Shown here: positions 49,140 through 64,000 of the stretch, piece by piece
Layout of the letters: each line of letters begins with the position of its first letter
Numbering within the stretch: position 1 is the stretch's first letter
Assembly: GCA_903919145.1 (NCBI GenBank)
Contig: CAIXGW010000063.1
Span: 8,253-72,252, forward strand
Length of the DNA stretch: 64,000 bases
Direction: 5' to 3'
From: an uncultured Myxococcales bacterium
Lineage (GTDB): Bacteria > Myxococcota_A > UBA9042
The notes under the pieces: generated by a model
What the model was told of the DNA's origin: nothing
Databases searched by the model: none
The model's input: only the letters and a program-made list of their open reading frames with translations
Program-made: the position numbers and the translations under genes

Positions 49140-52100
49140 CTAGTTGCACAGCCCGCCGCTGCACTTGCCCAGGCCACACGCCATGCCATCTGGCGCGGTG
49201 GGGTGCAGGCAGACGCCGGCCAGGCAGTTCTCCAGCGTGCACGGGTTGCCGTCGTCGCAGCCGGCATAGGTCTTGGCGGCGCAGCCTGCGCTCTCGCTGC
49301 AGTCTGGGTTGCCCCAGGCATCGACACGGAACAACGGAGAAAGCTTGACGTTGCTGTTGGGCTCGCGCAGGGCAATGACGGCGCCTTGGCCACTGCGCGC
49401 GGCGACGGGCACGTAGCCGCCCCACTGGCCGCTGACCGTCCAGGCCTTGCTGAACAGCACCTTGCCATCGCTCAGGCGCAGCCGCGTCCACAACCAGCCA
49501 GAGACCTTCCAGTCGCCGATGCTGGAGACCACCACCACGGTATCGCCTTCGGTCCACACGCCGCCTACCACCTCGTCACTGCCCAGGCTGCTGACCAGCG
49601 GTGTCTGCCACAAGGTAGTGCCGTCCGGGCCAAAGCGGGCCACGCCCAGTTCCTGCCATGGGCTGGAGCAGGAGCTACTGCCACAGGACTTGTAGGTGCG
49701 GCCCGCGGCGACCACGTCATCCGTCGCTGCGACCTTGACCGCTTGAAAGTCGATCCAAGAGGTCCACACGGTCAGGTTGAGCTTGATGGGGGACCCAGGC
49801 ACGCCCGCAGCCGAGAATTTGGTCAGATACATCGGCGGGCCATCGCTGAGGTTGGGGTTGGCGTAGAGCAAGGTCTCGCCGCCTTCGGTCACGCTCAAGA
49901 AGCCGCTGGAGTGGGTCATGGGGGTCTTGATCCGCCAAGAGACCACGCCGCTCTGAGACAGCCGGATGAGCTCGGTCTGGTAGGCGTTGCCGGTCGAGCT
50001 GCCCATCACCACTACCGTGCCACCTTGGGGGTGCGCGGCGAGCATGGTCAAGTTGGGCCAGCCGTACCCGCTGAGGGCTGGAATCTGCACCTGCACCTCA
50101 GGCACGCCGGCATTGCCAATCAGCAACACCTCATTGCCCCTGGCGATCCACGTGCCCTGGGCTGTCCAGGCGGTAGTGTGCCACGCGGGCTCTCCTGTGA
50201 GAGACCAGTTGGCCGTCACGCTGCCGCCAGCCGAGGTGCGCCCCAGCCACGCCGTGCCCTTGGAGGCTCCCGCGGGGTACCAAACGCCCGCCCACTGGGT
50301 GGTGCCGTCTGCCAAAGCCTGCGCCCGCCAGGGCACCACCGTCCCTCCCGTTACCCCTAGGGTTTTCTGCCACAGCCCAGGCCCTTGCGAGGCGCACTTG
50401 CCGCCCGTGCAGGCAAACGCTTCGCAGCCGCTGCCGCCTACAGCGGTGCAGGGCGCTCCGTCGGCGGCTGGCGCCTTGGTGCACTGGCCCTGGCTGCAGC
50501 CATCGGCGGTGCACGGATCGCCGTCATCGCAGGCCATGGAGATCCAGGCAGTGCCTAGGGAATTGCAGGTCTGCACGGCGCTGCCCAGGCACTGCTTGGC
50601 CCCGGGCAGGCACACGGCTGGCGGCACCTCGCACTTGCCGCCATCGCACACCTGACCCATGGCCGCGCACTTGCTCAAGACCGTTGCCTTGGTGCCGGTG
50701 GAATCGCAGGTCGCGACGTCATCGCCCTGACAATACGTCTGCCACGGCACGCACACCTTGGCCTTGCACTCGCCTTTGTTGATGCACACCTGTCCACTGG
50801 GGCAGGGGGCTTGCTTGGACCAGCCGGCGTCTTTGGTGCAGAAACCCGGCACGCCATCGACGCAGCCGTAGTTGCCAAAGATGCAGGGGTTGGTCACGCA
50901 GCTGCCGCTCTTGCAGGAGGCGCCGTTCTGCTGACAGTCCAAGAGGTTTTGCCAGACGCCGCCGATGGCACAGGTCTGCACAATGTCGCCGCTGCACTGG
51001 ACTTGGCCAAGGCTGCAGGGCGGCACCACGCACTGCCCGCTGCTGCACACTTTGCCCGCCTCGCAAGGGGTCGTTTGGTAGGCCTCGCCGTCGGCAGCAC
51101 AGGTCTGCAGGGTCTTGCCGTCGGCACAGGAGACCGCGCCGGCCGTGCACAGGGGGGCTTTCACGCAGGCCCCGGCTTGGCAGATCGTGGGCGACGGGCA
51201 AGGCGCCGCAGTCGTTTTTGCGGTCCCGGTGGCGTCGCAGGTGGCAACCGCGTTGTCTTGGCAGGTCTTGGAGCCGGGAGTACAGACCAGCGGCTTGCAC
51301 AGCCCTTTGCCGGCCTCCACTACGCAGGTCTGGTTGCTGGCGCACGGCCCGCTCTGCCAAAGGCCTTGAGCCGTGCACGTCTGCAGCGCGCTGCCGGCGC
51401 AGCTGGTCTGGCCGCTGGCGCACACCTTGCTGGCACAAGCGCCCGCCAAGCAGACCTTTTCCGCAGGGCAGTCCTTGGCTGCCGACCACTGCAGGCCGTT
51501 GTCGGCACAGGTCTGCCACTGTGGCCCTTGGCACTGGCTGGCGCCGGGCTGGCAGATCTGCGCCTTGCACACGCCGCCCTCGCAGCCCTGATCCTTGGCG
51601 CACGCAGCCTTGATCCACTGTCCGCCATTGCACAATTCGCGGGTCAGCGCATCGGCGCACTGCGCATCGCCGTCTAGGCACAGCTGGGTCACGCACTGGT
51701 TGTCTACGCAGGTCGCACCGCCGTCGCAGTCGGTTGGGTCCACGCACTGCACGCACTGGCCCTTGGATTTGTCGCACACTTGGTCGCCGTCGCACTCTTT
51801 GGTGCTGGCACAGGGCTTGGCCGGGGCCACACACACCCGATCTGCACAGGTCCAGTCTGGCTGGCAGTCCACGCTCTCTTCGCATTGCACGCAGTGGCCA
51901 GCCGAGGAGTCGCACACCGCGTCTAGGCTGGTGCAGTTCTTGTCGCTCTTGCACGGCACGGCAGGCGAGCACACGCCGTCAAAGCACGCTTGGTCAGCGG
52001 CGCACTGGGCTTGACCCTGGCAGCCGCTGGCGGGCGCATCGCCGGCCCCGCCATCGCCGACGGCATCCTTGTCTTGTAGCCCGCCGTCCTGGATGTCTTG

Positions 52101-52292
52101 GTCGGTGCCAGAGGCTCCCAGGTCATTGCCGGCTTGACCGCTGTCGGCAACGCTCAGGCTTGGCGAGGTCTCGGGCCCGCCTCCGCAGCCCGCCAGCCAC
52201 GCGGCCAGCACCGCCACACCAGCTAACTGGGCCCAGCACCGCCGCCTGTCGCCTCGTGAATGCCAGTTCAACGGTGCCTCCCCGGGGTTCAT
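49140..52292 (-). CDS. 1050 aa lipoprotein: about nine tandem 43 aa eight-Cys modules, a beta-propeller-like region, and a C-terminal CDDGNPC motif
   Basis: Lipobox LAGCGGG. Recurrent modules such as (I/V)CxxGxxxCxGxxxQTCxxxGxWxxxxxCxxxxxCxxGxC. The C-terminus is ..GCDDGNPCTLENC... Confidence 0.7.
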   Translation of the reverse strand: MNPGEAPLNWHSRGDRRRCWAQLAGVAVLAAWLAGCGGGPETSPSLSVADSGQAGNDLGASGTDQDIQDGGLQDKDAVGDGGAGDAPASGCQGQAQCAADQACFDGVCSPAVPCKSDKNCTSLDAVCDSSAGHCVQCEESVDCQPDWTCADRVCVAPAKPCASTKECDGDQVCDKSKGQCVQCVDPTDCDGGATCVDNQCVTQLCLDGDAQCADALTRELCNGGQWIKAACAKDQGCEGGVCKAQICQPGASQCQGPQWQTCADNGLQWSAAKDCPAEKVCLAGACASKVCASGQTSCAGSALQTCTAQGLWQSGPCASNQTCVVEAGKGLCKPLVCTPGSKTCQDNAVATCDATGTAKTTAAPCPSPTICQAGACVKAPLCTAGAVSCADGKTLQTCAADGEAYQTTPCEAGKVCSSGQCVVPPCSLGQVQCSGDIVQTCAIGGVWQNLLDCQQNGASCKSGSCVTNPCIFGNYGCVDGVPGFCTKDAGWSKQAPCPSGQVCINKGECKAKVCVPWQTYCQGDDVATCDSTGTKATVLSKCAAMGQVCDGGKCEVPPAVCLPGAKQCLGSAVQTCNSLGTAWISMACDDGDPCTADGCSQGQCTKAPAADGAPCTAVGGSGCEAFACTGGKCASQGPGLWQKTLGVTGGTVVPWRAQALADGTTQWAGVWYPAGASKGTAWLGRTSAGGSVTANWSLTGEPAWHTTAWTAQGTWIARGNEVLLIGNAGVPEVQVQIPALSGYGWPNLTMLAAHPQGGTVVVMGSSTGNAYQTELIRLSQSGVVSWRIKTPMTHSSGFLSVTEGGETLLYANPNLSDGPPMYLTKFSAAGVPGSPIKLNLTVWTSWIDFQAVKVAATDDVVAAGRTYKSCGSSSCSSPWQELGVARFGPDGTTLWQTPLVSSLGSDEVVGGVWTEGDTVVVVSSIGDWKVSGWLWTRLRLSDGKVLFSKAWTVSGQWGGYVPVAARSGQGAVIALREPNSNVKLSPLFRVDAWGNPDCSESAGCAAKTYAGCDDGNPCTLENCLAGVCLHPTAPDGMACGLGKCSGGLCN

Positions 52293-52396: not shown

Positions 52397-52699
52397 GCCG
52401 CGCCATCGGACATTGCCCTGGGGACTGTCCGACGGCCCGCCGTGTCGCATCGGACACTGCCCTGGGGAGTGTCCGACGGCCGCCGTGTCGCATCGGACAT
52501 TGCCCTGGGGACTGTCCGACGGCCCGCCGTGTCGCATCGGACATTGCCCTGGGGAGTGTCCGACGGCCCGCCGTGTCGCATCGGACATTGCCCTGGGGAG
52601 TGTCCGACGGCCTGCCGTGTCGCATCGGACATTGCCCTGGGGAGTGTCCGACGGCCCGCCGTGTCGCATCGGACACTGCCCTGGGGAGTGTCCGAGGGC
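52397..52699. repeat. Tandem array of seven copies of a 44 bp palindromic unit GTGTCGCATCGGACAYTGCCCTGGGGASTGTCCGACGGCCCGCC
   Basis: The hairpin cores begin at 52404, 52448, 52491, 52535, 52579, 52623 and 52667. The period is 44 bp (one unit is 43 bp). Each unit contains the inverted repeat CGGACA..TGTCCG around CCCTGGGG. Units differ only by 1-2 SNPs. There are no unique spacers. Confidence 0.9.
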
Positions 52700-53568
52700 T
52701 ACGCCACGCCCCACTCAACCGGCACCCCAACCTGCTGGCAAGACAGGCGCCACAACCGCTCGATGTCGTCGGCTCTGCCCGCCTGAGGGGCCGGCTGCGC
52801 AGGCTGCGACCGCGCGAAATACTGGCCGCTCAGCGCCTCAAGCCCGGGCGCCAGTGCGCAATACACAGATGTGGCGGCGCCTTCCTGCAAGCTGTCGGGG
52901 CCGTCCATGCCAAAGCCCTCTCGCAGCAGCTTGGTGCCCACCACGCCTGGATGCAGGCTGAAGGCGCTTAGCTGCGCCGCGTCAAAGCGCTGTGCCAGGG
53001 CGCGGGCAAACATCACATTGGCCAGCTTGGACTGGGCATAGGCGGCGTAGCCCGTCTGCTGTTGCAGGTGATCCCAGTGGATCTGCCCGCGGTTGTGCGC
53101 CACAGACGCGACCACGACCACCCGCGCCGGTGCCGAGCGCAGCAGCAATGGCAACAGCTCGTGAGTCAGCAGCAGGGGCGCCAAGTGGTTGACCTGCCAG
53201 CTGCGTTCCAGCGGATCGACCTGCCCAGTGGCGCCCCGGGCCTGCGCGGCGGCAGCGGCTGGACCGGCGGTCGAAAACACCCCGGCATTGTGAATGACCC
53301 GGTCCAACCGCGGCAGCTGTTCGACCAGTTGCGCGGCTCCGCGGCGAATCGCGGCAAAGTCGGCCAGGTCAAAGACCACCCCCTGGGGCTGGGCGCGACC
53401 GCAGAGCGCTGCGAGTTCAGCGCTCACCGCCTGAACTTTTACCCCGTCGCGACCATGCACGACCACCTGAGCGCCGCGGCTGACCAACTGGCGGGCGGTC
53501 TCGCGGCCGATGCCGTCCGTCGACCCGGTCACAAGGACTACTAGAGAAAGAGGGGTACTGCTGCTCAC
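52699..53568 (-). CDS. Short-chain dehydrogenase/reductase (SDR) family oxidoreductase
   Basis: VLVTGSTDGIGRETARQL is the TGxxxGxG NAD(P)-binding motif. The YxxxK catalytic region is present. Confidence 0.8.
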   Translation of the reverse strand: MSSSTPLSLVVLVTGSTDGIGRETARQLVSRGAQVVVHGRDGVKVQAVSAELAALCGRAQPQGVVFDLADFAAIRRGAAQLVEQLPRLDRVIHNAGVFSTAGPAAAAAQARGATGQVDPLERSWQVNHLAPLLLTHELLPLLLRSAPARVVVVASVAHNRGQIHWDHLQQQTGYAAYAQSKLANVMFARALAQRFDAAQLSAFSLHPGVVGTKLLREGFGMDGPDSLQEGAATSVYCALAPGLEALSGQYFARSQPAQPAPQAGRADDIERLWRLSCQQVGVPVEWGVA

Positions 53569-53889: not shown

Positions 53890-54185
53890 ACCGCCGGACA
53901 CCCCCAGGGGAATGTCTGATGCTTGTAGCCGTTGACGAATTTCGGACGGCCAGCAGGCGGCCCGCACCGAGAAGCCCCGTCGGACATTCCCTAGGGGAAT
54001 GTCTGATACTTGTAGCCGCTGATGAATTTTGGACGGCCAGCGTTCCGTCCCCGCCGGGCGACACCGCCGGACACTCCCTAGGGGAATGTCTGATCCTTGT
54101 AGCCTTTGACGAATTTCGGACGGCCAGCAGACGGCCCGCACCGAGAAGCCCCGTCGGACACTCCCTAGGGGAATGTCTGATCGGG
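53890..54185. repeat. Tandem array of about 3.5 copies of an 87 bp unit, each carrying the palindrome CGGACAYTCCCTAGGGGAATGTCTG
   Basis: CGGACA recurs at 53895, 53981, 54068 and 54155. The units alternate between two spacer variants, giving an A-B-A pattern. The core is related to the 44 bp unit at 52397-52699, sharing CGGACA..TGTC and a cggacggcc segment. Confidence 0.85.
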
Positions 54186-56773: not shown

Positions 56774-57211
56774 CTAACTGCCGCGGCGATGGCGCCACTG
56801 GGGGCTGGGAATTGGCAATTCTACGGCAGAAAACTGCACCGGCAGCTGCCGCACTACCTCCAGCCGGTTGGCGGCCGCTGCCTCGGTCGCCACAATAAAC
56901 GGCAAGGAAATCGCCGGTGGTTGCCGACCACTGCCGTCAACGCTGCGGGTGACATAACGCTCCAGGTCCATCAGCGCTCCCTCAAAGCCCGCGCCGGCCT
57001 CGACCTCCAGCAGGATGGGCACTTTGACCACCAACGGCACCCCGTCAAACAGCGGCACCCGCACTTCCATTTCCAGCACAAAGTCTGGGCTTTTGTTTGA
57101 CTCGGCCTCGCGCTGGGGGTGCAGGCGCAGGGTCACGGTGGCGTCTTGCATGGCGGCTTGCAGGCGCGGCTGCAGCCACGCAGCCATGGCGTCTTCGCCG
57201 CGGCCTTTCAT
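56774..57211 (-). CDS. Hypothetical 145 aa protein translationally coupled (ATGA) to the large NTPase
   Basis: GC3-rich frame. ATG overlaps the upstream stop. No recognised motif. The central segment is probably beta-rich: FVLEMEVRVPLFDGVPLVVKVPILLEVEAG. Confidence 0.5.
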   Translation of the reverse strand: MKGRGEDAMAAWLQPRLQAAMQDATVTLRLHPQREAESNKSPDFVLEMEVRVPLFDGVPLVVKVPILLEVEAGAGFEGALMDLERYVTRSVDGSGRQPPAISLPFIVATEAAAANRLEVVRQLPVQFSAVELPIPSPQWRHRRGS

Positions 57212-60200
57212 GTGGGCTCCTCTACGGTGCGCAGCAGCCCCAGGGCCACCAGCTCGGCGACCGCTGGGGGCAGGGCCGCAGCGTCACCGGCCAGCACGGC
57301 CGCGTAGTACTGCTGGGCCGCGGGCGACGCACCACTCAGGCGTTGCTGGCGCTGCTGCGCCACGTGGGCACGCGTCTGGTCCAGGCGCTGGCGGGCCTCT
57401 GGCAGCGGCAGGTTGGCGGGTACCGGCCGCGGCATCGGCCCTCCCAGGCGCGCCAGCCGCTCGGCGCAGTCCTCCTGCTGGCGTTGCAGGGCCGCAAGCT
57501 CCTCTAGTGCCTGCTGATTGTGGGTCCTGAGTGCCACCAACAGCTCGGACCAATCCGCTGTGGCCGCGGTGGGCAGCGGCAAGCCCAGGCGCCGCGCAGT
57601 GTCAAGGTGTGGCTGAATTTCGCCCACCTGCCGCCACGCCTCGGCCAGGGCGCCGCGCCACTCCTCCAGCTCTGGCCGCGGCGGCGGGGCCAGGCGCAGC
57701 GGCAGCCGCGCGGTCTGCAGCCAGTTGGCCAGGGCCTCGTGGCGGCGCACCAGGGCCTCTCGCACCCGGGCCTGCTCGCGCTCTAGCAGCCGGGTCGCAC
57801 CGGCCAGAGAAAGCTCATGGGGGATGCCGGCCGCGCGTTCGCCCAGCACGACAAGCACGCTGCCGACTTCGCGCAGCTGCCCGACTTGGGCCTCCAGTGT
57901 CGCCGCCTGCTGGGCGCACATGGCCTCCAGCTCCACCAGGGCGGCCTGGGCCGTGGTGGCCTCCAGGACCCCAGTGGGATAGCTGCCGGCGGTCTTGGCG
58001 TGGAGGTCTTTGAGGGCCAGCCAACGCTCCTCAAAGTCGCGCGCCGCCTGAACGATCGCCTGGTACGCGCGCGCCCCGTCGCTGGATTGGCCGGCACCGG
58101 CCAGCTCGTCGATGACCGCCTGGGGCAACAGGCTTGAGCGCAGGTTCTGCAGACTGGCCAGGGCGCGTTGGCGCATCCGCCCGGCTTCGCGCAGATCGTC
58201 GGGCGTCACGCTCAAGCCCTGGCTCCAGCCGGCCATCCGGCGATCGAGCTGAGCCAGCGCCGGCAGTGGCGCCTCGCCCCACCCCGCCAACAGCTGGATC
58301 TTGACTGCCGCATCGACGATCCAACGCTGGATTTCGTCAGAGCCGCGCGGGGTCGCCGCTTGCAGCGCCTGGCTCAGCTGCTGGCGCGGAAAATCGCCCA
58401 GGGCCGCCCACGCGGCGTCAATGGCTTGCACATCGCCGGGATCGACCCGCAGCTCGCCGTCCAGCACCGTGCCCAGCAGGTTCTCCAAGTGCATGCGCAG
58501 GCGCTGATGCCGCGACGCCTCGGCGTGTTTGCGCAGGGCCTCCAGGTAGTCCATCAGGCCGCGGCCCGCCGGTCGGGGAGCGTCGGCGCCCAGCTCCGCC
58601 ATCAGCTCTGGCAGGCGCCGCAGCAGCCCCAGCTCGGCGCTGGTCGCATCCAGGTCTGGCAGATAGGCCTCCAGCGCCTCGGCAATCGAGATGCCGCGCT
58701 CTTGCAGGGCTTCGCTGGCGTGCTCCAAAGCCTCTACCAGCGGCCCCAGCAAAGTCACCGCTGCGCGCAGGTGGTCGACTTCGCGGGCTGCCGTGGCCAG
58801 GGCGTCCAGCTGGTTGGCGAGCTGGGCCCGGCGGTGGCGCAGCAGGTCGACGCAGCGCTGGGCGCCCAGCTCCGCCAAGCTGCGCTGCAATTCATCAGCC
58901 TGGCGGCCCAGATCCGCGCCGGCCGCGGCAATGCGCTGCCACTCGGCCAAAGCGGCCTGCTCCTTTTCGACGCCCTTAAGCAGCCGCGCAGCCATCACGC
59001 CACACACCCACAGCAGCAGCGAGCGCACCCAGGCCTGACCGCTGCGCTCCCCCAGCCCCTGCAGCTCGCTGGTCAACAGGCGCAGCTGCTCTACCGGCCC
59101 CGCCTGCGTGCGCACCTGATCGGTGAAATTGCCCAGCCGCAATGCGCTCAAGCCCGCCTGGCGCCGGCCGGTGCAGCGCTCCAAGTCGCTGACAATGGCC
59201 GCCGCCTGGCGCGAGGTGTCGTCGAGCCGCCGCAGCGCATCCAGGGCGTCCAGCTCGCGCGACACATCGGGCAGGGTGCCGGCGTGGTGCTGCAGCAAAG
59301 TCTCCAGCCTTAGGCGATCTTCGCTGTACAGCCACGCCGCCAGGCGCGAGCGCAGCGCTGGCTCGCCGGCAAACCGCTCCAGCAGGGCGTTCAGCTCCGC
59401 GGCCGGCGCCACCGCCACCTCTGTCCAGCGCGGCGTGCGCGCCCCCGCCGGCAACAGGTTGTCGATCACCACCGCCGCGCCAGAGAGCCGCCCACCGGGA
59501 TTGGCCTCGCGGGCCAGCCGTCGCAGCGGACTTCCTTCGGCAAATAGCGCCGCCGCTTTGGCGCTCACAATCCGCTCGGCCGGCGAGATCGGCCGCAGGG
59601 CAAACAGCAGGCCCAGCAGCGCCGGGCTGTCGCGGTCCAGGCGCGCCAACGTGCCGCGAAAGCTGTCGTTCTGGCGAATGTAGCTGACGGCGGCTTGCCA
59701 GCGCGGGGCAGGCCGCGGGCGCACATCGCGCACTTGCACCGCCACCCGATCGCGGTGCCATGCGATTTTGCGGGCCAATTGCCGGTCGCTGCGCGGGCTT
59801 TCCAGCAGTGCATCCATGCGCGCCCCAAGGCCCGCAGCGTGGCAGCGCACCGCCAAACACTTCAGAAATGTCGCGTGAAAGCGCCCCGGGTCCACCACCG
59901 CCAGCCGGCCGGCAAACTCGGCCAAGTCCAGCTGCGGCGGCCGCGGCCCGCTGGCGTCCAGCAGCAGCGCGCGCAGGGGATCGTCCGCGCCATCCAGTGC
60001 CCCCGCTTCGATGTGCTGGGCCAGGCGACCGGCATGGGCAAACACGCTGAAGCCCGCCGATTCTGACCGCAGCAAAGGCCCCTGTACCCCCGCAAGATCG
60101 CGCAGGCGCCGGTCGAGCTCGGCTTCGTTGGGCACGCGGCCATCGTCCAGGGGCAGATAGGGGTCGGTAAACGGCGAGGGAAACAGCTCGTCCGCCAGTT

Positions 60201-61425
60201 CCCGCAGGGCAAAAGGCAGGCGCCGGGCAAGAGGCCCCATCTCGCCCAGGGCGTCAAAAATCCGCGCTCCCTCTTGGCCCAGCCCGTCCAGGGGCTCGCG
60301 GATGCGCCCCGACTCCACGGCGCGGGCCTCGGCTACCCGCAGCGCCGCGGCAAAATCGTCCAACGTCAGGTAGGCGCGGTCGTCTTCGTCAGCGCAGGCT
60401 TCGATCACCGCCACCAGCTCATTGGCCACCGGCTGCAGCTCTTCGGTCGCACGCCAACGCCGGCCCAGCTCATGGCGAATCCGGTCGGCCAGGCTGCGGC
60501 GGTCGCTGACCTGAATGACCACGCCGCCACACGGAGTGGCACAGGCCACCGGGCGCAGATCGGCCAGCTCGCCCAGTCGGCGGTGGTCCAGGCCGTGGCG
60601 CAGCAGCGCGGGGACGCCAAAAACCCCAGGCAGGGCATCCATTGCGTCGCCAAGGGCCGCCAGATCTGTGCCAAAGAGCCCGGCATTGAGCGGCTCCAGC
60701 ACCGCTCGCACCGCCTGCTCGACGCCACGGGCGCGGCCCCGGCTGATCCACCAGGCAAAATTGGCCTGACCGCGCGACAGGCCAAAATGCGCCTGAATAG
60801 CAGGGACATCGATGGACGGCACTGGCAGGGTCACCAGCCGGCCGCGATCGGCATCGCCCAGGGCGTGGTAAGACTCAGGAGCGTAGGCCAGCAGCAGCCG
60901 CAGGTCGGGGCCACAGGCGTCCACCAGGGCCCGCAACGGCTGGCCGTCGTCGGTGGCAATGCGCTTGAGCAACAGCTGGTGGGCCTGCTCGACCTCATCT
61001 AGCAGCAGCACCACGGTGCAACCAGGGCCCTGGCCTTGCCCCAAGCGCTCTGCCACGTCGCTGCGGCCGCGCTGGTGCAGGTCGGCCAGGTAGGCGCGCC
61101 GCTCTGGGCTATCTTGGGCCAGCTGCGCGAGCCAGTGGCGCACGCGGGCCACAAAGGTCTGCGGCAGCAGCGTCTCGCCGGCGGGGGCCAGCCGCTCGAT
61201 AAAGGCCGCTGCTTCGTCCCACACGGGCAAGGCGCCGCGGGTCAGAGCTTGGCGCAAAATCGCAAACAGCAAGGTACTTTTGCCCGACCCATAGACCCCG
61301 ACCGCCGCCGCGGCAAACGGACCGTCGGCGCCAAAGGCGATCTGCTCGGCGCTGGCCAGTGTGTGCGCCGCCAGCGGCGTAAAGGCAACCCAGGGCGTGT
61401 CGATCCGCGCGGTAAGGCCCTTCAT
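57208..61425 (-). CDS. Large (about 1405 aa) P-loop NTPase with a roughly 1200 aa Ala/Leu/Arg/Glu-rich helical region
   Basis: Walker A GVYGSGKSTLL at residues 45-55. Walker B VVLLLDEVEQ near residue 140. The rest is helical/coiled-coil-like with no SMC signature motif. The preferred start is the ATG at 61423-61425 (MKGLTARID); the tool start is a GTG two codons upstream. Confidence 0.6.
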   Translation of the reverse strand: MKGLTARIDTPWVAFTPLAAHTLASAEQIAFGADGPFAAAAVGVYGSGKSTLLFAILRQALTRGALPVWDEAAAFIERLAPAGETLLPQTFVARVRHWLAQLAQDSPERRAYLADLHQRGRSDVAERLGQGQGPGCTVVLLLDEVEQAHQLLLKRIATDDGQPLRALVDACGPDLRLLLAYAPESYHALGDADRGRLVTLPVPSIDVPAIQAHFGLSRGQANFAWWISRGRARGVEQAVRAVLEPLNAGLFGTDLAALGDAMDALPGVFGVPALLRHGLDHRRLGELADLRPVACATPCGGVVIQVSDRRSLADRIRHELGRRWRATEELQPVANELVAVIEACADEDDRAYLTLDDFAAALRVAEARAVESGRIREPLDGLGQEGARIFDALGEMGPLARRLPFALRELADELFPSPFTDPYLPLDDGRVPNEAELDRRLRDLAGVQGPLLRSESAGFSVFAHAGRLAQHIEAGALDGADDPLRALLLDASGPRPPQLDLAEFAGRLAVVDPGRFHATFLKCLAVRCHAAGLGARMDALLESPRSDRQLARKIAWHRDRVAVQVRDVRPRPAPRWQAAVSYIRQNDSFRGTLARLDRDSPALLGLLFALRPISPAERIVSAKAAALFAEGSPLRRLAREANPGGRLSGAAVVIDNLLPAGARTPRWTEVAVAPAAELNALLERFAGEPALRSRLAAWLYSEDRLRLETLLQHHAGTLPDVSRELDALDALRRLDDTSRQAAAIVSDLERCTGRRQAGLSALRLGNFTDQVRTQAGPVEQLRLLTSELQGLGERSGQAWVRSLLLWVCGVMAARLLKGVEKEQAALAEWQRIAAAGADLGRQADELQRSLAELGAQRCVDLLRHRRAQLANQLDALATAAREVDHLRAAVTLLGPLVEALEHASEALQERGISIAEALEAYLPDLDATSAELGLLRRLPELMAELGADAPRPAGRGLMDYLEALRKHAEASRHQRLRMHLENLLGTVLDGELRVDPGDVQAIDAAWAALGDFPRQQLSQALQAATPRGSDEIQRWIVDAAVKIQLLAGWGEAPLPALAQLDRRMAGWSQGLSVTPDDLREAGRMRQRALASLQNLRSSLLPQAVIDELAGAGQSSDGARAYQAIVQAARDFEERWLALKDLHAKTAGSYPTGVLEATTAQAALVELEAMCAQQAATLEAQVGQLREVGSVLVVLGERAAGIPHELSLAGATRLLEREQARVREALVRRHEALANWLQTARLPLRLAPPPRPELEEWRGALAEAWRQVGEIQPHLDTARRLGLPLPTAATADWSELLVALRTHNQQALEELAALQRQQEDCAERLARLGGPMPRPVPANLPLPEARQRLDQTRAHVAQQRQQRLSGASPAAQQYYAAVLAGDAAALPPAVAELVALGLLRTVEEPT

Positions 61426-61734
61426 GGACACCGCCGCGGCGCCAGCGCCCCAAAGCGCCCAGAGCGAACCAGAAAACTAACTGAATTAGCTGCTGTTCTC
61501 ATTGTTTTGCTGCTGCCGTCGTCGGCTGGCGGGGCGTCGAGAGTACTCTTGCCCGCGGGCGTTCGCCAGTCGCAGGGCAGCTGCCCAATAGGGCCACTGC
61601 TGTGAACCCCAGACCGGCAAATCACCAACATTTCTAGCGGAACTCGCTGCCCGACTCCCTGCCCGCGCTCTCCTGTTGACGGTTTCGGCACATCTGTAGA
61701 AAGTATCCACAACTTCACCGGTGTGGAAATTCTA

Positions 61735-64000
61735 TGCACAGCGCCAAACCCCAGCCAGATCCAGCCATTTCGCCCGACGCCCCGCCGCAGATCGCCCAGT
61801 GGCAGGGGGCGCAGCCGCTGGCCCAAGGCGGTGGCGGTGCCGTGTGGCTGGCGAGCCAAGGCCCCGCTGGCCCCCTCAACCCGGCGGCCTTCGTCATCAA
61901 GCTGGCCAACCGCGACCAGCAAGACGTGCTGAGCCGCGAGTGGCGGGCGCTGCTAGAGGTGCCGCTGGCGATGCTGCCAGAGCCGGTGTGGCTGAGCCCG
62001 GTGGCACCGAGCCAGCACCGCGGCCGGGCCCAGGCACTGGTACTGGCGCGCTGTCCGGGCCTGCCGCTCGACGCGGCGCTGCAAGGGCACACCGCCCAAG
62101 AAGTCTTGGCCGTCGGCGCGGCATTGTTGCGCGGACTGGCGGTGTTGCATGCTCAAGGCTGGGTCCACGGCGACCTGCACGCGGGCAATGTGTTGGTCGA
62201 GACCACGGCGGCAGGTCCCGAGGTCACGCTGTTGGACCTGGGCCTGGCGGACCGCCACGGCGAGGCGATCCGCGGCCCAGGTCGGCTGGACGGCGCGGCG
62301 CCGGACCGCTTGCGCGGCGGACTGGCGGACCCGCGCGACGACCTGTTCTCTCTGGCTGCGGCGCTGTGGAAGGCGTGGCTAGGGGCGCCGGCCTGGCCCA
62401 ACTACCCGGCCCAACAGCCACAACGCCACCAGCGGCCCCAATTGCCGGCTGGGCACGGCGACCCGCTGGACCAGCGCCTGCTGGCGGCCTTGAGCGCCAT
62501 GCTGGCCCCGGAGCGCAGCCACCGCCCTCAAGACGCCGAGGCGGCGCTGCTGCTGTGGCGGGGGGCCGACGCCGACCCAGCGCAGGATCGCCGGTGGTGG
62601 GCGCAGGCGATGCGCCGGGCGGGCTCGCGGCGGTCACTGACACAGGTAGGGCAGGCCCTGCCCGAGCACCGCGGGTTGTGGCTGCAGGGGCCGCCGGGCA
62701 GCGGGCGCTCTTCGCTGCTGTGGACGCTGGCCACCCAAGCGGCAGACAGCGGCCGGGCGGTGGCGTGGCTGACCTCTGACAAGCAAGGGCAAATGCTGAT
62801 CAATTGCGGGCAGCACAGCTGGGCTTGGCAAGCGCCGGCGCTGCGCGGCTCCCTGCTGGGAGACGGACTGGCGCAGGCGGCGGAGCAGGGCGCGGCATGG
62901 CTGGCCCAGCACCTGGACGCGCTGGACGAGGGCCTGGCGCCCGGTTGGCTGCTGGCAGACGATGCCGGCGAATTGTCTCCGGCGGCGGCGGCGGTGCTGC
63001 AGGCGCTGCTGGCCGATCCACAGCGGCTGCCGGGTTGGCGACTGGCCGCTGCGGGCGGCGAGGCGCCGGCGGCGGCCCAGGCTTGGCAGCTGCCGGCCCT
63101 GAACCTGCAGGACCTGGCAGACCGACTGAGCGCCGTGACCGGTGGGCGCCGCTGGGATGCCGCCGTGGTCGCAGCGCTGGCGGAGACGGTTGGGGCGCGG
63201 CGCAGAGAAGCCCTTGAGCTGGCTGCAGAACTCATCGACCAGGGCGCAGTCGAGATTGGCGCAGAGCGGGTTGACTGGCGCGACGGCTCCGCGCTGCCGC
63301 CCGTGGTGGTTGGCGAGCTGGCCCAAGCCCGCCGCGCGCTGCAGCTCCCGGATCCCAGCTGGTGGCCGCTCATCGGCCGGTTGGCGACGGCCAGCGGAGC
63401 GATGGCGCTGCCCCCCCAAGCCCGCGCCTTTGCCGAGCGCTCGCCGCTGTTGGCGCTGCGTGGCCCAGACCGGGTGGCCATGGCCGACCAGGCGGCGCGG
63501 CAATTCGTCTTGGCGGCGCTGCCTTGTGAGCTAGTGGGCGCGGAATTGCGTGCTCAGGCCAGCGCTGCTGAGACGGCGGCCGAGCGCGCGGCGCTGCGGG
63601 TCAGGGCGTGGCAGAGCGATGCCTCCCAGGCGCCAGAGGGGCGCGAAGTGGCCGATGCAGCTGCCGCCCTTCTTGGCCAGGGCGCCTACGCCGCAGCCGA
63701 GGCGCTGTGCGGACCGTGGTTGGCGGCGCAGCCGTTGGACGCCGCCGCGCCAGAGCTGCCAGAGGTGGCCGCGGCGCTGCTGAGGGCCAAGACCGCCCAG
63801 GGCCAGCTGATCCAAGCCGGAGAGCTGGCCGGGCGCTGGCCAGAGGCCTGGGATCGCCACCGGCCATTGCTGTTGGCGCGGGCAGAGTGGGCTTTTCGCT
63901 CGGGGCTCTATCCCCAATGCCGCGAGCTGGCGACGCAATTGACCAAGAGCGACCCCAGCGACGCCGACGCCTGGCTGTGGTTGACCTTTGCCGCCACCTG
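61735..64000 (+). CDS. Ser/Thr protein kinase-like domain fused to a P-loop (AAA/STAND-type) NTPase and helical repeats; the C-terminus lies beyond the window end
   Basis: Missing from the ORF track because it has no stop in the window. The frame is open from the ATG at 61735 to 64000 with high GC3. Kinase subdomains: glycine-rich loop AQGGGGAVW, FVIKL, catalytic loop HGDLHAGN (atypical) and DLG. Then LWLQGPPGSGRSSLLWTLA Walker A, followed by Ala/Leu-rich repeats. Confidence 0.7.

What the first reader, a model, noticed from the sequence alone, without database searches (positions are those of the whole stretch)
56774..64000. Divergent locus: 1405 aa P-loop NTPase with a 1200 aa helical tail, a coupled 145 aa protein, and an opposing kinase-AAA-repeat STAND-like gene
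The minus-strand gene has contiguous Walker A (GVYGSGKST) and Walker B (VVLLLDEVEQ) motifs in the first 150 aa. After that there is only Ala/Leu/Arg/Glu-rich helix, with no SMC/ABC signature and no TM segment. It is ATGA-coupled to a 145 aa protein of no recognisable family. A 300 bp AT-poorer divergent promoter region (61426-61734) separates it from a protein kinase-NTPase fusion (GPPGSGRS Walker A). The kinase has a non-canonical catalytic loop, HGDLHAGN instead of HRDLKPEN. I could not match the large NTPase to BrxC, SMC/Jet/Mks, dynamin or OLD-type architectures from sequence features. The two-gene unit plus an opposing STAND-like sensor looks like a signalling or defence module, not housekeeping. 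A bestrophin channel / rhodanese-like operon follows 220 bp downstream.
Basis: partly seen in the sequence, partly recalled or inferred. Interest (0 to 1): 0.66.

Follow-up and report, generated by a model that had tools for sequence, protein, structure and literature searches.

The report
Unannotated ATPase–small protein defence-island cassette
The big ATPase and the small gene after it form a self-contained, unnamed two-gene cassette that recurs next to restriction, SIR2, Druantia-helicase and conjugative-element genes, so it is probably a new anti-phage or anti-plasmid system; the neighbouring kinase is not part of it.

Summary
The sequence features are real. A 1405 aa P-loop protein (57211-61425, minus strand) is joined by an ATGA overlap to a 145 aa protein (56777-57211). 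A kinase-STAND-TPR gene starts divergently at 61734.

The conserved unit is only the two-gene cassette. DNA homology to relatives runs from about 56,830 to 61,445 and stops 23 bp upstream of the ATPase start, even in the closest relative found. The small gene lies directly downstream in 15 distinct loci, mostly with a 4-bp overlap.

No Pfam, NCBIfam or PADLOC model matches either protein.

- **The ATPase:** the AlphaFold model shows an ORC/Cdc6/DnaA/TnsC-type AAA+ domain, an alpha/beta middle region, a basic helical block and a long variable helical tail. This resembles BrxC in layout, but there is no BrxC sequence match and no PglZ or PglX.
- **The small protein:** it has an alpha-beta-beta-beta-alpha core with invariant PD...ExE, which looks like a nuclease site but is unproven.
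- **Relatives:** other bacteria carry a split form (about 940 aa ATPase, about 350 aa coiled coil, about 130 aa small protein). The small protein also has a Thermococcus homologue, and some ATPase-domain relatives are archaeal.
- **Context:** flanks are often defence islands or mobile elements. One lineage is coupled to a DruE helicase.

My verdict is a candidate new defence cassette whose mechanism is inferred, not shown.

The parts
57211..61425 (-). Large ATPase gene, 1405 aa (stop at 57208-57210; an alternative GTG start lies at 61431)
   Evidence: ORF and translation. There are 36 full-length-type homologues, all of about 1400 aa and all 'hypothetical'. The AF2 model of residues 1-1200 has mean pLDDT 86.6.
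60631..61425 (-). AAA+ ATPase domain plus helical lid (residues 1-265). Walker A G43-T51 is at 61273-61299 and Walker B V138-Q147 at 60985-61014. The candidate Arg finger R194/R196 sits just before strand 5, and SRGRARG lies in the lid.
   Evidence: Foldseek against the PDB hits Cdc6 1fnn (prob 0.99), DnaA 2z4r (0.99) and TnsC 8fcu_Q (1.00), plus the clamp loader. These residues are invariant in 31 sequences. The motif assignment is my inference.
59836..60585 (-). Middle alpha/beta region (residues 281-530) with the invariant F415-P-S-P-F-T-D-P-x-L-P425 motif
   Evidence: Strands and helices come from the model and invariant columns. There is one weak local hhalign match to E. coli BrxC 437-509 (prob 48%), which is not significant.
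58936..59835 (-). Basic, Arg-rich helical block (residues 531-830, pI 10.7). It is a candidate DNA-binding surface.
   Evidence: Composition and pI; all-helical in the model. The DNA-binding role is inferred.
57211..58935 (-). Long variable helical or coiled-coil tail (residues 831-1405), ending in the conserved motif E1391-L...G1396-L1397
   Evidence: Mean identity to homologues falls from 61% (residues 1-280) to 32% (1101-1405). The model shows helices of 20-35 residues. In split relatives a separate 344-362 aa coiled-coil gene occupies this position.
57208..57211 (-). ATGA overlap of the ATPase stop and the small-gene start (translational coupling)
   Evidence: The sequence is TCAT on the + strand. 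The same 4-bp overlap occurs in L002, L003, L005, L008 and L042.
56777..57211 (-). Small partner gene, 145 aa (stop at 56774-56776). The core runs alpha1(4-23), beta1(25-32), beta2(44-55), beta3(58-68), alpha2(76-91). Residues P42, D43, P65, E69, E71, G75, D82, L83, R89 and P104 are invariant.
   Evidence: Translation. The AF2 model has pLDDT 83.3. Invariant residues hold across fused, split and archaeal homologues. There are 121 homologue clusters, none with a Pfam domain or a name.
61426..61733 (.). Divergent intergenic spacer of 308 bp with 60% GC. It lies outside the conserved cassette except for the first 20 bp or so.
   Evidence: GC content. No sigma-70-like site. Homology to relatives ends at 61429-61448.
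61734..64000 (+). Neighbouring gene, not part of the cassette. It encodes an atypical kinase (HGDLHAGN), a STAND-type NTPase (GPPGSGRS) and TPR, and is cut by the window end.
   Evidence: Translation. Pkinase 3e-8, weak AAA_16, nSTAND and TPR_14. PADLOC shows kinase-domain-only hits to MkoA and PD-T4-6. No orthologue sits next to other cassettes.

Best explanation
The ATPase and the small gene form a mobile two-gene cassette of about 4.6 kb that most likely works as an anti-phage or anti-plasmid defence module.

Proposed mechanism (all inferred):
1. The large protein is an ORC/Cdc6-type AAA+ ATPase laid out like BrxC. It probably self-associates on DNA under ATP control.
2. The basic helical block would contact DNA. 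The fast-evolving helical tail would act as a sensor or as an arm for protein contacts.
3. The small, more conserved partner carries an acidic PD...ExE cluster on a beta-hairpin. It would be the effector, most likely a Mg2+-dependent nuclease, or else a tightly bound regulatory subunit.

The kinase-STAND gene opposite is a separate neighbour.

Shown: the gene pairing, the limits of the cassette, the AAA+ fold class, the conservation pattern and the genomic contexts.

Inferred: the defence function, DNA binding, oligomerisation and nuclease activity.
For: 1. **Pairing.** The small gene is directly downstream of the ATPase in 15 distinct loci, mostly with a 4-bp overlap. P0033 and P0244 carry consecutive locus tags.
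2. **Unit of conservation.** blastn homology between the window and nine relatives covers only about 56,830-61,445. The flanking genes differ in every lineage.
3. **Context.**
   - L008/L009: a DruE helicase (PADLOC DruE3, E=1.5e-114) overlaps the ATPase start by 4 bp. Eco57I, DUF4365, SLATT_4 and a large serine recombinase are nearby.
   - L042: an N6/N4 methyltransferase, DUF87 and two SIR2_2 genes.
   - L040: a SNF2-PLD helicase, Eco57I and N6 methyltransferases and HSDR_N-RAMA. The pooled neighbour scan found DrmMI and type IIG models in two ORFs, though it does not say which.
   - L033: a SNF2 helicase and a C5 methyltransferase. L031: an AAA_21/AAA_15 ATPase.
   - L027: QueC-DpnII/MboI, DUF6119 and AAA_15.
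   - L002: inside a conjugative element with VirB4, TrbC, ParAB, SSB, DUF932 and RadC.
   - L021/L022: a resolvase.
4. **Rarity and patchiness.** There are 11 loci among 185,579 species genomes and 36 protein clusters.
5. **Fold.** The N-terminal domain is an AAA+ of the Cdc6/DnaA/TnsC type. Walker A, Walker B and the candidate Arg residues are invariant.
6. **Sensor/effector asymmetry.** ATPase identity falls from 61% to 32% along its length. The small protein is 50-83% identical across the same loci.
7. **Small protein.** It has an alpha-beta-beta-beta-alpha core. D43, E69, E71, D82 and R89 are invariant from Myxococcota to Thermococcus.
8. **BrxC parallel.** BrxC combines an ORC/Cdc6 AAA+, wHTH and alpha+beta domains and a 250-500 aa coiled coil (PMC12839542, section 16). 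Its self-association and DNA binding are regulated by ATP (PMC13326643).
Against: - There is no experimental evidence of any kind.
- Defence is inferred from neighbours only. I ran no background-corrected enrichment test.
- The window's own flanks (bestrophin, rhodanese, SDR, GMC oxidoreductase) are not defence genes, and no integrase or tRNA gene is nearby.
- Some clade members have no small partner and sit in conserved chromosomal synteny: L001 and L004 with Lactamase_B and VIT/YfaP_C, and L025/L026.
- The small protein has no significant structural or sequence match to any nuclease. The best Foldseek E-value is 0.4 against the PDB and 0.04 against BFVD, and the PDB profile search found nothing.
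- The lysine of the (D/E)xK motif is not conserved.
- No PADLOC model matches either protein.
- No copy was found in viral contigs.
Confidence: 0.55

Rival explanations
1. The cassette is an accessory sensor or loader module of a Druantia-like helicase system. It works only with a DruE-type helicase-nuclease. The window copy would then be an orphan that has lost its helicase or uses one encoded elsewhere.
For: - In L008/L009, DruE, the ATPase and the small gene are all joined by 4-bp overlaps.
- In L003/L015 the upstream coupled 1333 aa gene keeps about 80 C-terminal residues similar to the DruE C-terminus (E=3e-7 and 2e-5). This suggests an ancestral DruE junction in that subclade.
- Druantia systems pair DruE with variable partners (10.64898/2026.05.12.722862; PMC8565338).
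- Other helicases lie near the cassette in L033, L036 and L040.
Against: - Only one of about 20 distinct lineages has DruE.
- No DruE occurs in the 64 kb window or in the other loci.
- The cassette boundaries exclude any helicase.
- Neither protein matches the DruA-D, F, G, H, L or M models.
- DruH is an Ig-domain ssDNA binder and is unrelated in architecture (10.64898/2026.05.12.722862, section 9).
Confidence: 0.15
2. The cassette serves a DNA-maintenance function for mobile elements or the chromosome, not immunity. Possible roles are target selection or loading in the manner of TnsC, IstB, MuB or Cdc6, or partition or condensation by a coiled-coil ATPase.
For: - The AAA+ domain is closest to TnsC, DnaA and Cdc6.
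- L002 lies in a conjugative element next to ParA/ParB.
- Resolvases, serine recombinases or IS elements are adjacent in L021/L022, L008 and L006.
- Partner-less copies sit in stable chromosomal synteny.
Against: - No transposase or recombinase is consistently linked.
- The cassette has no terminal repeats that I could tie to it.
- The fast-evolving tail alongside a conserved small acidic protein fits the sensor/effector pattern seen in conflict systems.
- The neighbours are predominantly restriction, SIR2 or helicase-nuclease genes rather than replication or partition genes.
Confidence: 0.12
3. The two-gene unit and the opposing kinase-STAND gene form one signalling module, with the kinase as sensor or regulator.
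For: - Divergent kinase or kinase-STAND genes sit directly upstream in three lineages: the window, the L006/L007/L011/L030 group and L031.
- L001 has a Pkinase gene about 2 kb upstream.
- A rough estimate suggests this is more often than chance for a gene class that makes up a few percent of genes.
Against: - The kinases are not orthologous. The window kinase's only tblastn match in the other loci is a 96-residue stretch at 35% identity.
- L013, the closest relative, has no kinase, and homology ends 23 bp before the ATPase start.
- About 12 other lineages have unrelated upstream genes.
- The three kinase-bearing loci belong to one subclade, so they are not independent observations.
Confidence: 0.08

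Closest known systems
BrxC / PglY, the central AAA+ ATPase of BREX (and the related DUF499 ATPases of BREX-related systems)
   Same: - Both are large proteins of 1200-1400 aa with an N-terminal ORC/Cdc6-clade AAA+ domain.
- Walker A (GxxGSGKS) and Walker B (hhhhDEVxQ) are contiguous in both.
- Both have a helical lid, then alpha/beta and helical DNA-binding-type domains, then a long variable C-terminal coiled coil.
- Both occur in defence islands and work with small partner proteins.
(PMC12839542 section 16; PMC13326643.)
   Different: - There is no significant sequence or profile similarity. hhalign gives prob 5% globally and 48% for one 68-column local match. The only PADLOC matches among 31 family members were marginal hits to four unrelated models. 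The window protein matched no BrxC, DUF499 or DUF6079 model in Pfam or NCBIfam.
- No PglZ, PglX, BrxA, BrxB or BrxL lies in any locus. The small partner is unrelated to BrxA and BrxB.
- The spacing between Walker A and Walker B is about 95 aa, against about 190 aa in E. coli BrxC.
Druantia (DruE helicase plus variable partners; types I-IV)
   Same: In one lineage (L008/L009) a DruE3-type helicase with DEAD, Helicase_C and MZB domains is translationally coupled to the ATPase and the small gene. This mirrors the Druantia rule of one DruE plus variable subunits.
   Different: The window and nearly all other loci lack DruE. Neither cassette protein matches any known Druantia partner model. DruH is built from Ig-like domains and has no ATPase (10.64898/2026.05.12.722862).
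Minimal PD-(D/E)xK nucleases (Hjc or Vsr type; BamHI-like D...ExE variant)
   Same: - The small protein has an alpha-beta-beta-beta-alpha core.
- An acidic residue sits on helix 1 (E6/D7).
- An invariant PD lies at the start of strand 2 and an invariant ExE at the end of strand 3, so the three would lie together across the hairpin.
- The comparison with Hjc and BamHI motifs comes from my own knowledge.
   Different: - No significant structural or sequence match was found.
- The motif lysine is absent (EVEAG) or shifted (EAEK).
- The weak top Foldseek hits are dsRBD-, LptE- and HPF-type alpha/beta folds.
STAND / nSTAND NTPase sensors (Avs-like)
   Same: Both combine an N-terminal P-loop NTPase with a long helical, rapidly evolving C-terminal region. 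Some family members give weak AAA_16, AAA_22 and nSTAND_NTPase5 hits.
   Different: All these hits fall below the Pfam cut-offs. The best structural matches are Cdc6, DnaA and TnsC rather than NB-ARC (NRC3 prob 0.51). There is no fused effector domain.

Membership tests
BREX BrxC/PglY | N-terminal ORC/Cdc6-clade AAA+ ATPase followed by a long C-terminal coiled coil | tested here: met
   Foldseek hits Cdc6, DnaA and TnsC with prob 0.96-1.0. The model is helical from about residue 530 to 1200. This is a similarity of architecture only.
BREX BrxC/PglY | Sequence match to BrxC, PglY, DUF499 or DUF6079 models, or to BrxC itself | tested here: not met
   Pfam, PADLOC and NCBIfam give no hit for the window protein. 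PADLOC on all 31 members gave only marginal hits to unrelated models. hhalign against E. coli HS BrxC is not significant.
BREX BrxC/PglY | Co-occurrence with PglZ phosphatase and PglX methyltransferase | tested here: not met
   No PglZ or PglX appears in the window or among the genes called or scanned in the related loci.
Druantia | DruE (YprA-type helicase with MZB domain) in the same operon | tested here: not met
   tblastn with the L008 DruE finds nothing in the window or in the other loci. The feature is met only in L008/L009.
Druantia | A known partner protein (DruA-D, F, G, H, L, M) | tested here: not met
   PADLOC gives no hit for the ATPase family or the small protein.
PD-(D/E)xK nuclease superfamily (small partner) | alpha-beta-beta-beta-alpha(-beta) core fold | tested here: inconclusive
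PD-(D/E)xK nuclease superfamily (small partner) | Conserved D ... (D/E)xK catalytic motif on strands 2 and 3 | tested here: inconclusive
   P42-D43 and E69-x-E71 are invariant, but the lysine is absent or shifted.
SMC/ABC-type coiled-coil ATPases (Lamassu LmuB, Wadjet JetC, MukB) | Walker A and Walker B separated by the coiled coil, with an ABC signature motif | tested here: not met
   Both Walker motifs lie within the first 147 residues in one AAA+ fold. Remote relatives give only marginal LmuB coiled-coil hits.
STAND NTPases | Match to NB-ARC, NACHT, AAA_16 or nSTAND models above threshold | tested here: inconclusive
   AAA_22 scores E=0.023 (15.5 bits; cut-off 27). Some homologues have weak AAA_16 hits.
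Protein kinase (neighbouring gene at 61734+) | Pkinase domain with a catalytic loop | tested here: met
   Pkinase scores 33.8 bits against a cut-off of 31.7. The loop is HGDLHAGN, and weak Kdo, ABC1 and Bud32 hits point to the atypical branch.

The most novel reading that the evidence does not exclude
This would be a previously undescribed defence system found in both bacteria and archaea. It exists in a fused form (1400 aa ATPase plus small protein, in Myxococcota and Bradymonadia) and a split form (about 940 aa ATPase, about 350 aa coiled coil and about 130 aa small protein, in other bacteria). The small protein also has a homologue in Thermococcus sp. LS2. Its ATPase would be an independent sister or analogue of BrxC that needs no methyltransferase or PglZ. 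Its effector would be a new minimal nuclease family with a PD...ExE site. The module could also plug into DruE helicases, which would define a new Druantia-like type.
Probability: 0.35. Interest if true: 0.75.

Novelty: new variant of a known kind. Interest (0 to 1): 0.62.

Why it matters
If the cassette is a defence system, it adds a compact two-protein module built on a BrxC-like AAA+ scaffold without any modification enzyme. That would help separate what the BrxC-type scaffold does by itself from what the rest of BREX does, which is still an open question.

It would also give names and a testable function to two protein families that are unannotated in every library I searched. These are about 160 representative clusters for the ATPase and about 120 clusters for the small protein.

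The DruE-coupled version would extend the list of Druantia partner sets. A homologue of the small protein in a named Thermococcus strain (sp. LS2) and short split versions offer tractable starting points.

Tried and rejected
- **Profile searches against PDB sequences.** The ATPase profile gave only RecA P-loop and coiled-coil noise. The small-protein profile gave nothing.
- **DruH, DruF, DruL and other Druantia partners.** Rejected on PADLOC results and on the published DruH structure.
- **BrxA and BrxB as relatives of the small protein.** Rejected.
- **BrxC homology.** Not significant.
- **Paralogy of nearby large genes with the ATPase.** The L003 1333 aa gene and the L004 1421 aa gene are not paralogues of it.
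- **Prophage origin.** No relative was found in 2.9 million viral contigs.
- **Kinase as a conserved partner.** Rejected.
- **Pooled PADLOC scan of 120 neighbouring ORFs.** It confirmed that kinase, DrmMI, type IIG and HmaA-type hits are present. Its summary format does not give counts per locus, so it is not an enrichment test.
- **Literature searches.** I found no paper describing this family.
Full report
**What is in the window**

The region has about 70% GC. On the minus strand, an ORF at 57208..61431 encodes a 1405 aa protein when read from the ATG at 61425. Walker A (GVYGSGKST) lies at residues 43-51 and Walker B (VVLLLDEVEQ) at 138-147.

Its stop overlaps the start of a 145 aa ORF (56774..57211) by the four bases ATGA. 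A 308-bp spacer follows upstream, with 60% GC against 71-74% in the flanking genes. It is therefore AT-richer, contrary to the finding.

On the plus strand, a gene starts at 61734 and runs off the window end. It encodes a kinase domain (HGDLHAGN loop; Pkinase E=3e-8), a P-loop NTPase (GPPGSGRS; weak AAA_16 and nSTAND hits) and TPR. Downstream of the small gene lie a Bestrophin_2 gene and a Rhodanese-domain gene. The raw observation is thus largely correct.

**No known family**

Pfam, PADLOC-DB 2.0.0 and NCBIfam 20.0 give nothing significant for the window's large or small protein. A PADLOC scan of all 31 aligned family members gave only marginal hits to four unrelated models.

The kinase gene gives only kinase-domain matches to MkoA, PD-T4-6 and MAD6.

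**The family and its conserved partner**

A search of 5.8 billion proteins found 36 homologues of the ATPase. All are about 1400 aa and all are 'hypothetical'. The source names given are Myxococcales, Polyangiaceae, Byssovorax and Bradymonadia. Only 11 loci turned up among 185,579 species genomes, 12 in JGI metagenomes and none in viral contigs.

The small protein has its own homologues on the same contigs. By tblastn and gene calls it lies immediately downstream of the ATPase in 15 distinct loci, usually with the same 4-bp overlap.

Two lineages of the most distant clade (L001, L004) and the remote P0090 lack the small gene and sit in conserved chromosomal synteny. Another member of that clade, P0033, does have it: P0244 carries the consecutive locus tag.

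**The unit is the two-gene cassette, not the kinase**

blastn of nine related loci against the window gives homology only between about 56,830 and 61,445. In L013, which shares 82% nucleotide identity, homology stops 23 bp upstream of the ATPase start. An unrelated 360 aa ORF follows there.

The window kinase gave no tblastn match at E<=1e-5 in the first 20 loci. In the enlarged set its only match was a 96-residue stretch at 35% identity in L031.

Divergent kinase or kinase-STAND genes do occur upstream in the L006 group and in L031. They look non-orthologous, and all three loci belong to one subclade. I read this as co-location of conflict-type genes, not as one system.

**Genomic context**

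The flanks differ in every lineage and are often defence-type or mobile:

| Locus | Neighbouring genes |
|---|---|
| L008/L009 | 1791 aa DruE helicase (PADLOC DruE3 E=1.5e-114; DEAD, Helicase_C, MZB) overlapping the ATPase start by 4 bp; Eco57I, DUF4365, SLATT_4, large serine recombinase |
| L042 | N6/N4 methyltransferase, DUF87 ATPase, two SIR2_2 genes |
| L040 (degraded ATPase) | SNF2-PLD helicase, Eco57I and N6 methyltransferases, HSDR_N-RAMA |
| L033 | SNF2 helicase, C5 methyltransferase |
| L031 | AAA_21/AAA_15 ATPase directly after the small gene |
| L002 | Conjugative element (VirB4, TrbC, ParAB, SSB, DUF932, RadC) |
| L016/L032 | Patatin |
| L006 | IS66 |

A pooled PADLOC scan of 120 neighbouring ORFs also found DrmMI, type IIG and HmaA-type hits, but it does not report which ORFs matched.

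In L003/L015 the coupled upstream 1333 aa gene keeps an approximately 80-residue C-terminal segment similar to the DruE C-terminus. This suggests that DruE coupling is ancestral in that subclade.

The window's own flanks show no defence or mobility genes and no tRNA gene.

**Wider superfamily**

A profile of the N-terminal 700 residues, searched against 1.84 billion representatives, found 158 clusters. Three groups stand out:

- proteins of about 930-965 aa that match across the whole profile
- proteins of about 1010-1090 aa that match only the ATPase domain; one sits in an archaeal-looking context next to TFIIB
- orphans

None has Pfam or PADLOC annotation beyond weak AAA_16, AAA_22 or nSTAND hits.

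In L021/L022 and L027/L028 the about 940 aa ATPase is followed by an overlapping 344-362 aa coiled-coil gene and then a 129-135 aa gene. That third gene is homologous to the window's small protein (hhalign prob 98%, E about 1e-14).

The combined length (about 941 + 362 aa) and the gene order suggest that the Myxococcota protein is a fusion. The coiled-coil match itself is not significant.

L027 is again a defence-type neighbourhood, with QueC-DpnII/MboI, DUF6119, AAA_15 and IstB. A profile search with the small protein found 121 clusters, none annotated, including one from Thermococcus sp. LS2.

**Structure of the ATPase**

The AF2 model of residues 1-1200 has mean pLDDT 86.6. Foldseek matches the N-terminal domain to Cdc6, DnaA, the clamp loader and TnsC with probabilities of 0.96-1.0. 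The E-values are weak because the query is long.

The five-strand core, the helical insert between strands 2 and 3, Walker A and B, R194/R196 just before strand 5, and the four-helix lid are invariant or nearly so. I infer an active, oligomerising AAA+ ATPase.

Residues 281-530 form an alpha/beta region containing the invariant FPSPFTDPxLP motif. Residues 531-830 are helical and very basic (pI 10.7). The rest is long helices.

Identity to homologues falls from 61% in residues 1-280 to 32% in residues 1101-1405.

This layout parallels the published domain map of BrxC (PMC12839542, section 16). BrxC's self-association and DNA binding are controlled by ATP (PMC13326643). Even so, hhalign against E. 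coli HS BrxC is not significant, and no PglZ or PglX appears in any locus examined. The ATPase is BrxC-like in design but is not a BrxC family member.

**Structure of the small protein**

The AF2 model has pLDDT 83.3. It shows helix 4-23, strands 25-32, 44-55 and 58-68, helix 76-91, and then an extended but confidently placed tail.

Across fused, split and archaeal homologues the invariant residues are P42, D43, P65, E69, E71, G75, D82, L83, R89 and P104. An acidic residue at position 6/7 is also conserved.

D43 lies at the start of strand 2 and E69/E71 at the end of strand 3, so they should face each other across the hairpin. That is the geometry of a PD-(D/E)xK site, here with ExE in place of ExK. 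BamHI has such a variant, by my recollection.

**Interpretation**

The best-supported reading is a mobile two-gene defence cassette: an ATP-driven, probably DNA-binding AAA+ scaffold or sensor with a small conserved effector.

Shown:
- the gene pairing
- the cassette boundaries
- the AAA+ fold class
- the conservation gradient
- the contexts

Inferred:
- the defence function
- DNA binding
- oligomerisation
- nuclease activity

The rivals are:
- an accessory module of DruE helicases
- a DNA-maintenance function for mobile elements

**Novelty**

I found no description of this family in the libraries or in the literature searches. The known Druantia types I-IV and the BREX-related systems have different partner sets.

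I rate it a new variant of a known kind, namely a defence-island module built on an ORC/Cdc6-type AAA+ scaffold. It is of moderate to high interest but has no experimental support.

Noticed in passing
window 52404-52699 and 53891-54182: Two tandem arrays (44 bp x 6.8 copies at 95% match; 87 bp x 3.4 copies at 80%) flank the SDR gene at 52699-53568. The units contain a palindromic CGGACA...TGTCCG core, so they look like REP-type repeats. They create spurious long ORFs with repeated peptide motifs.
   Followed up: partly
L003 4003-8004 (= L015 6003-10004): A 1333 aa ORF, translationally coupled to the ATPase, has a Cys-rich EGF-like N-terminal part and no Pfam or PADLOC hit. Its last 80 residues or so resemble the C-terminus of the L008 DruE (E=3e-7). 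It may be a chimera or a remnant of a replaced DruE.
   Followed up: partly
L008 2629-12631: A three-gene operon of DruE, ATPase and small protein, all joined by 4-bp overlaps and without DruH or any other known Druantia partner. This would be a new Druantia-like gene set.
   Followed up: partly
L001, L004 (and L025/L026): These ATPase homologues have no small partner. In L001 and L004 they sit in shared synteny with Lactamase_B and VIT/YfaP_C genes. They may be domesticated or decayed copies.
   Followed up: partly
L040 9962-12179: The ATPase gene is broken into fragments (query residues 6-125 and 689-1074 only). It lies inside an island of restriction, DISARM-like and SNF2-PLD genes, so it is a decaying copy.
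   Followed up: partly
L023 167-5299: A relative in an archaeal-type context (TFIIB neighbour): a 1041 aa ATPase, a 451 aa acidic coiled-coil protein and a 221 aa protein. The third protein is not detectably related to the small partner.
   Followed up: partly
P0294 (Thermococcus sp. LS2): A 132 aa homologue of the small protein from a named archaeal strain keeps the invariant PD...ExE...DL...R residues.
   Followed up: no
window 49140-52292 (-): A 1050 aa Cys-rich, repeat-containing, probably secreted protein with no Pfam hit.
   Followed up: no
window 61734-64000 (+): The HGDLHAGN catalytic loop and the DLG motif of the kinase fit the HGDxxxxN pattern of Bud32/RIO/Kdo/APH-type kinases. This rests on my own knowledge plus weak Kdo, ABC1 and Bud32 hits. 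The domain may be an atypical kinase rather than a dead Hanks kinase.
   Followed up: partly
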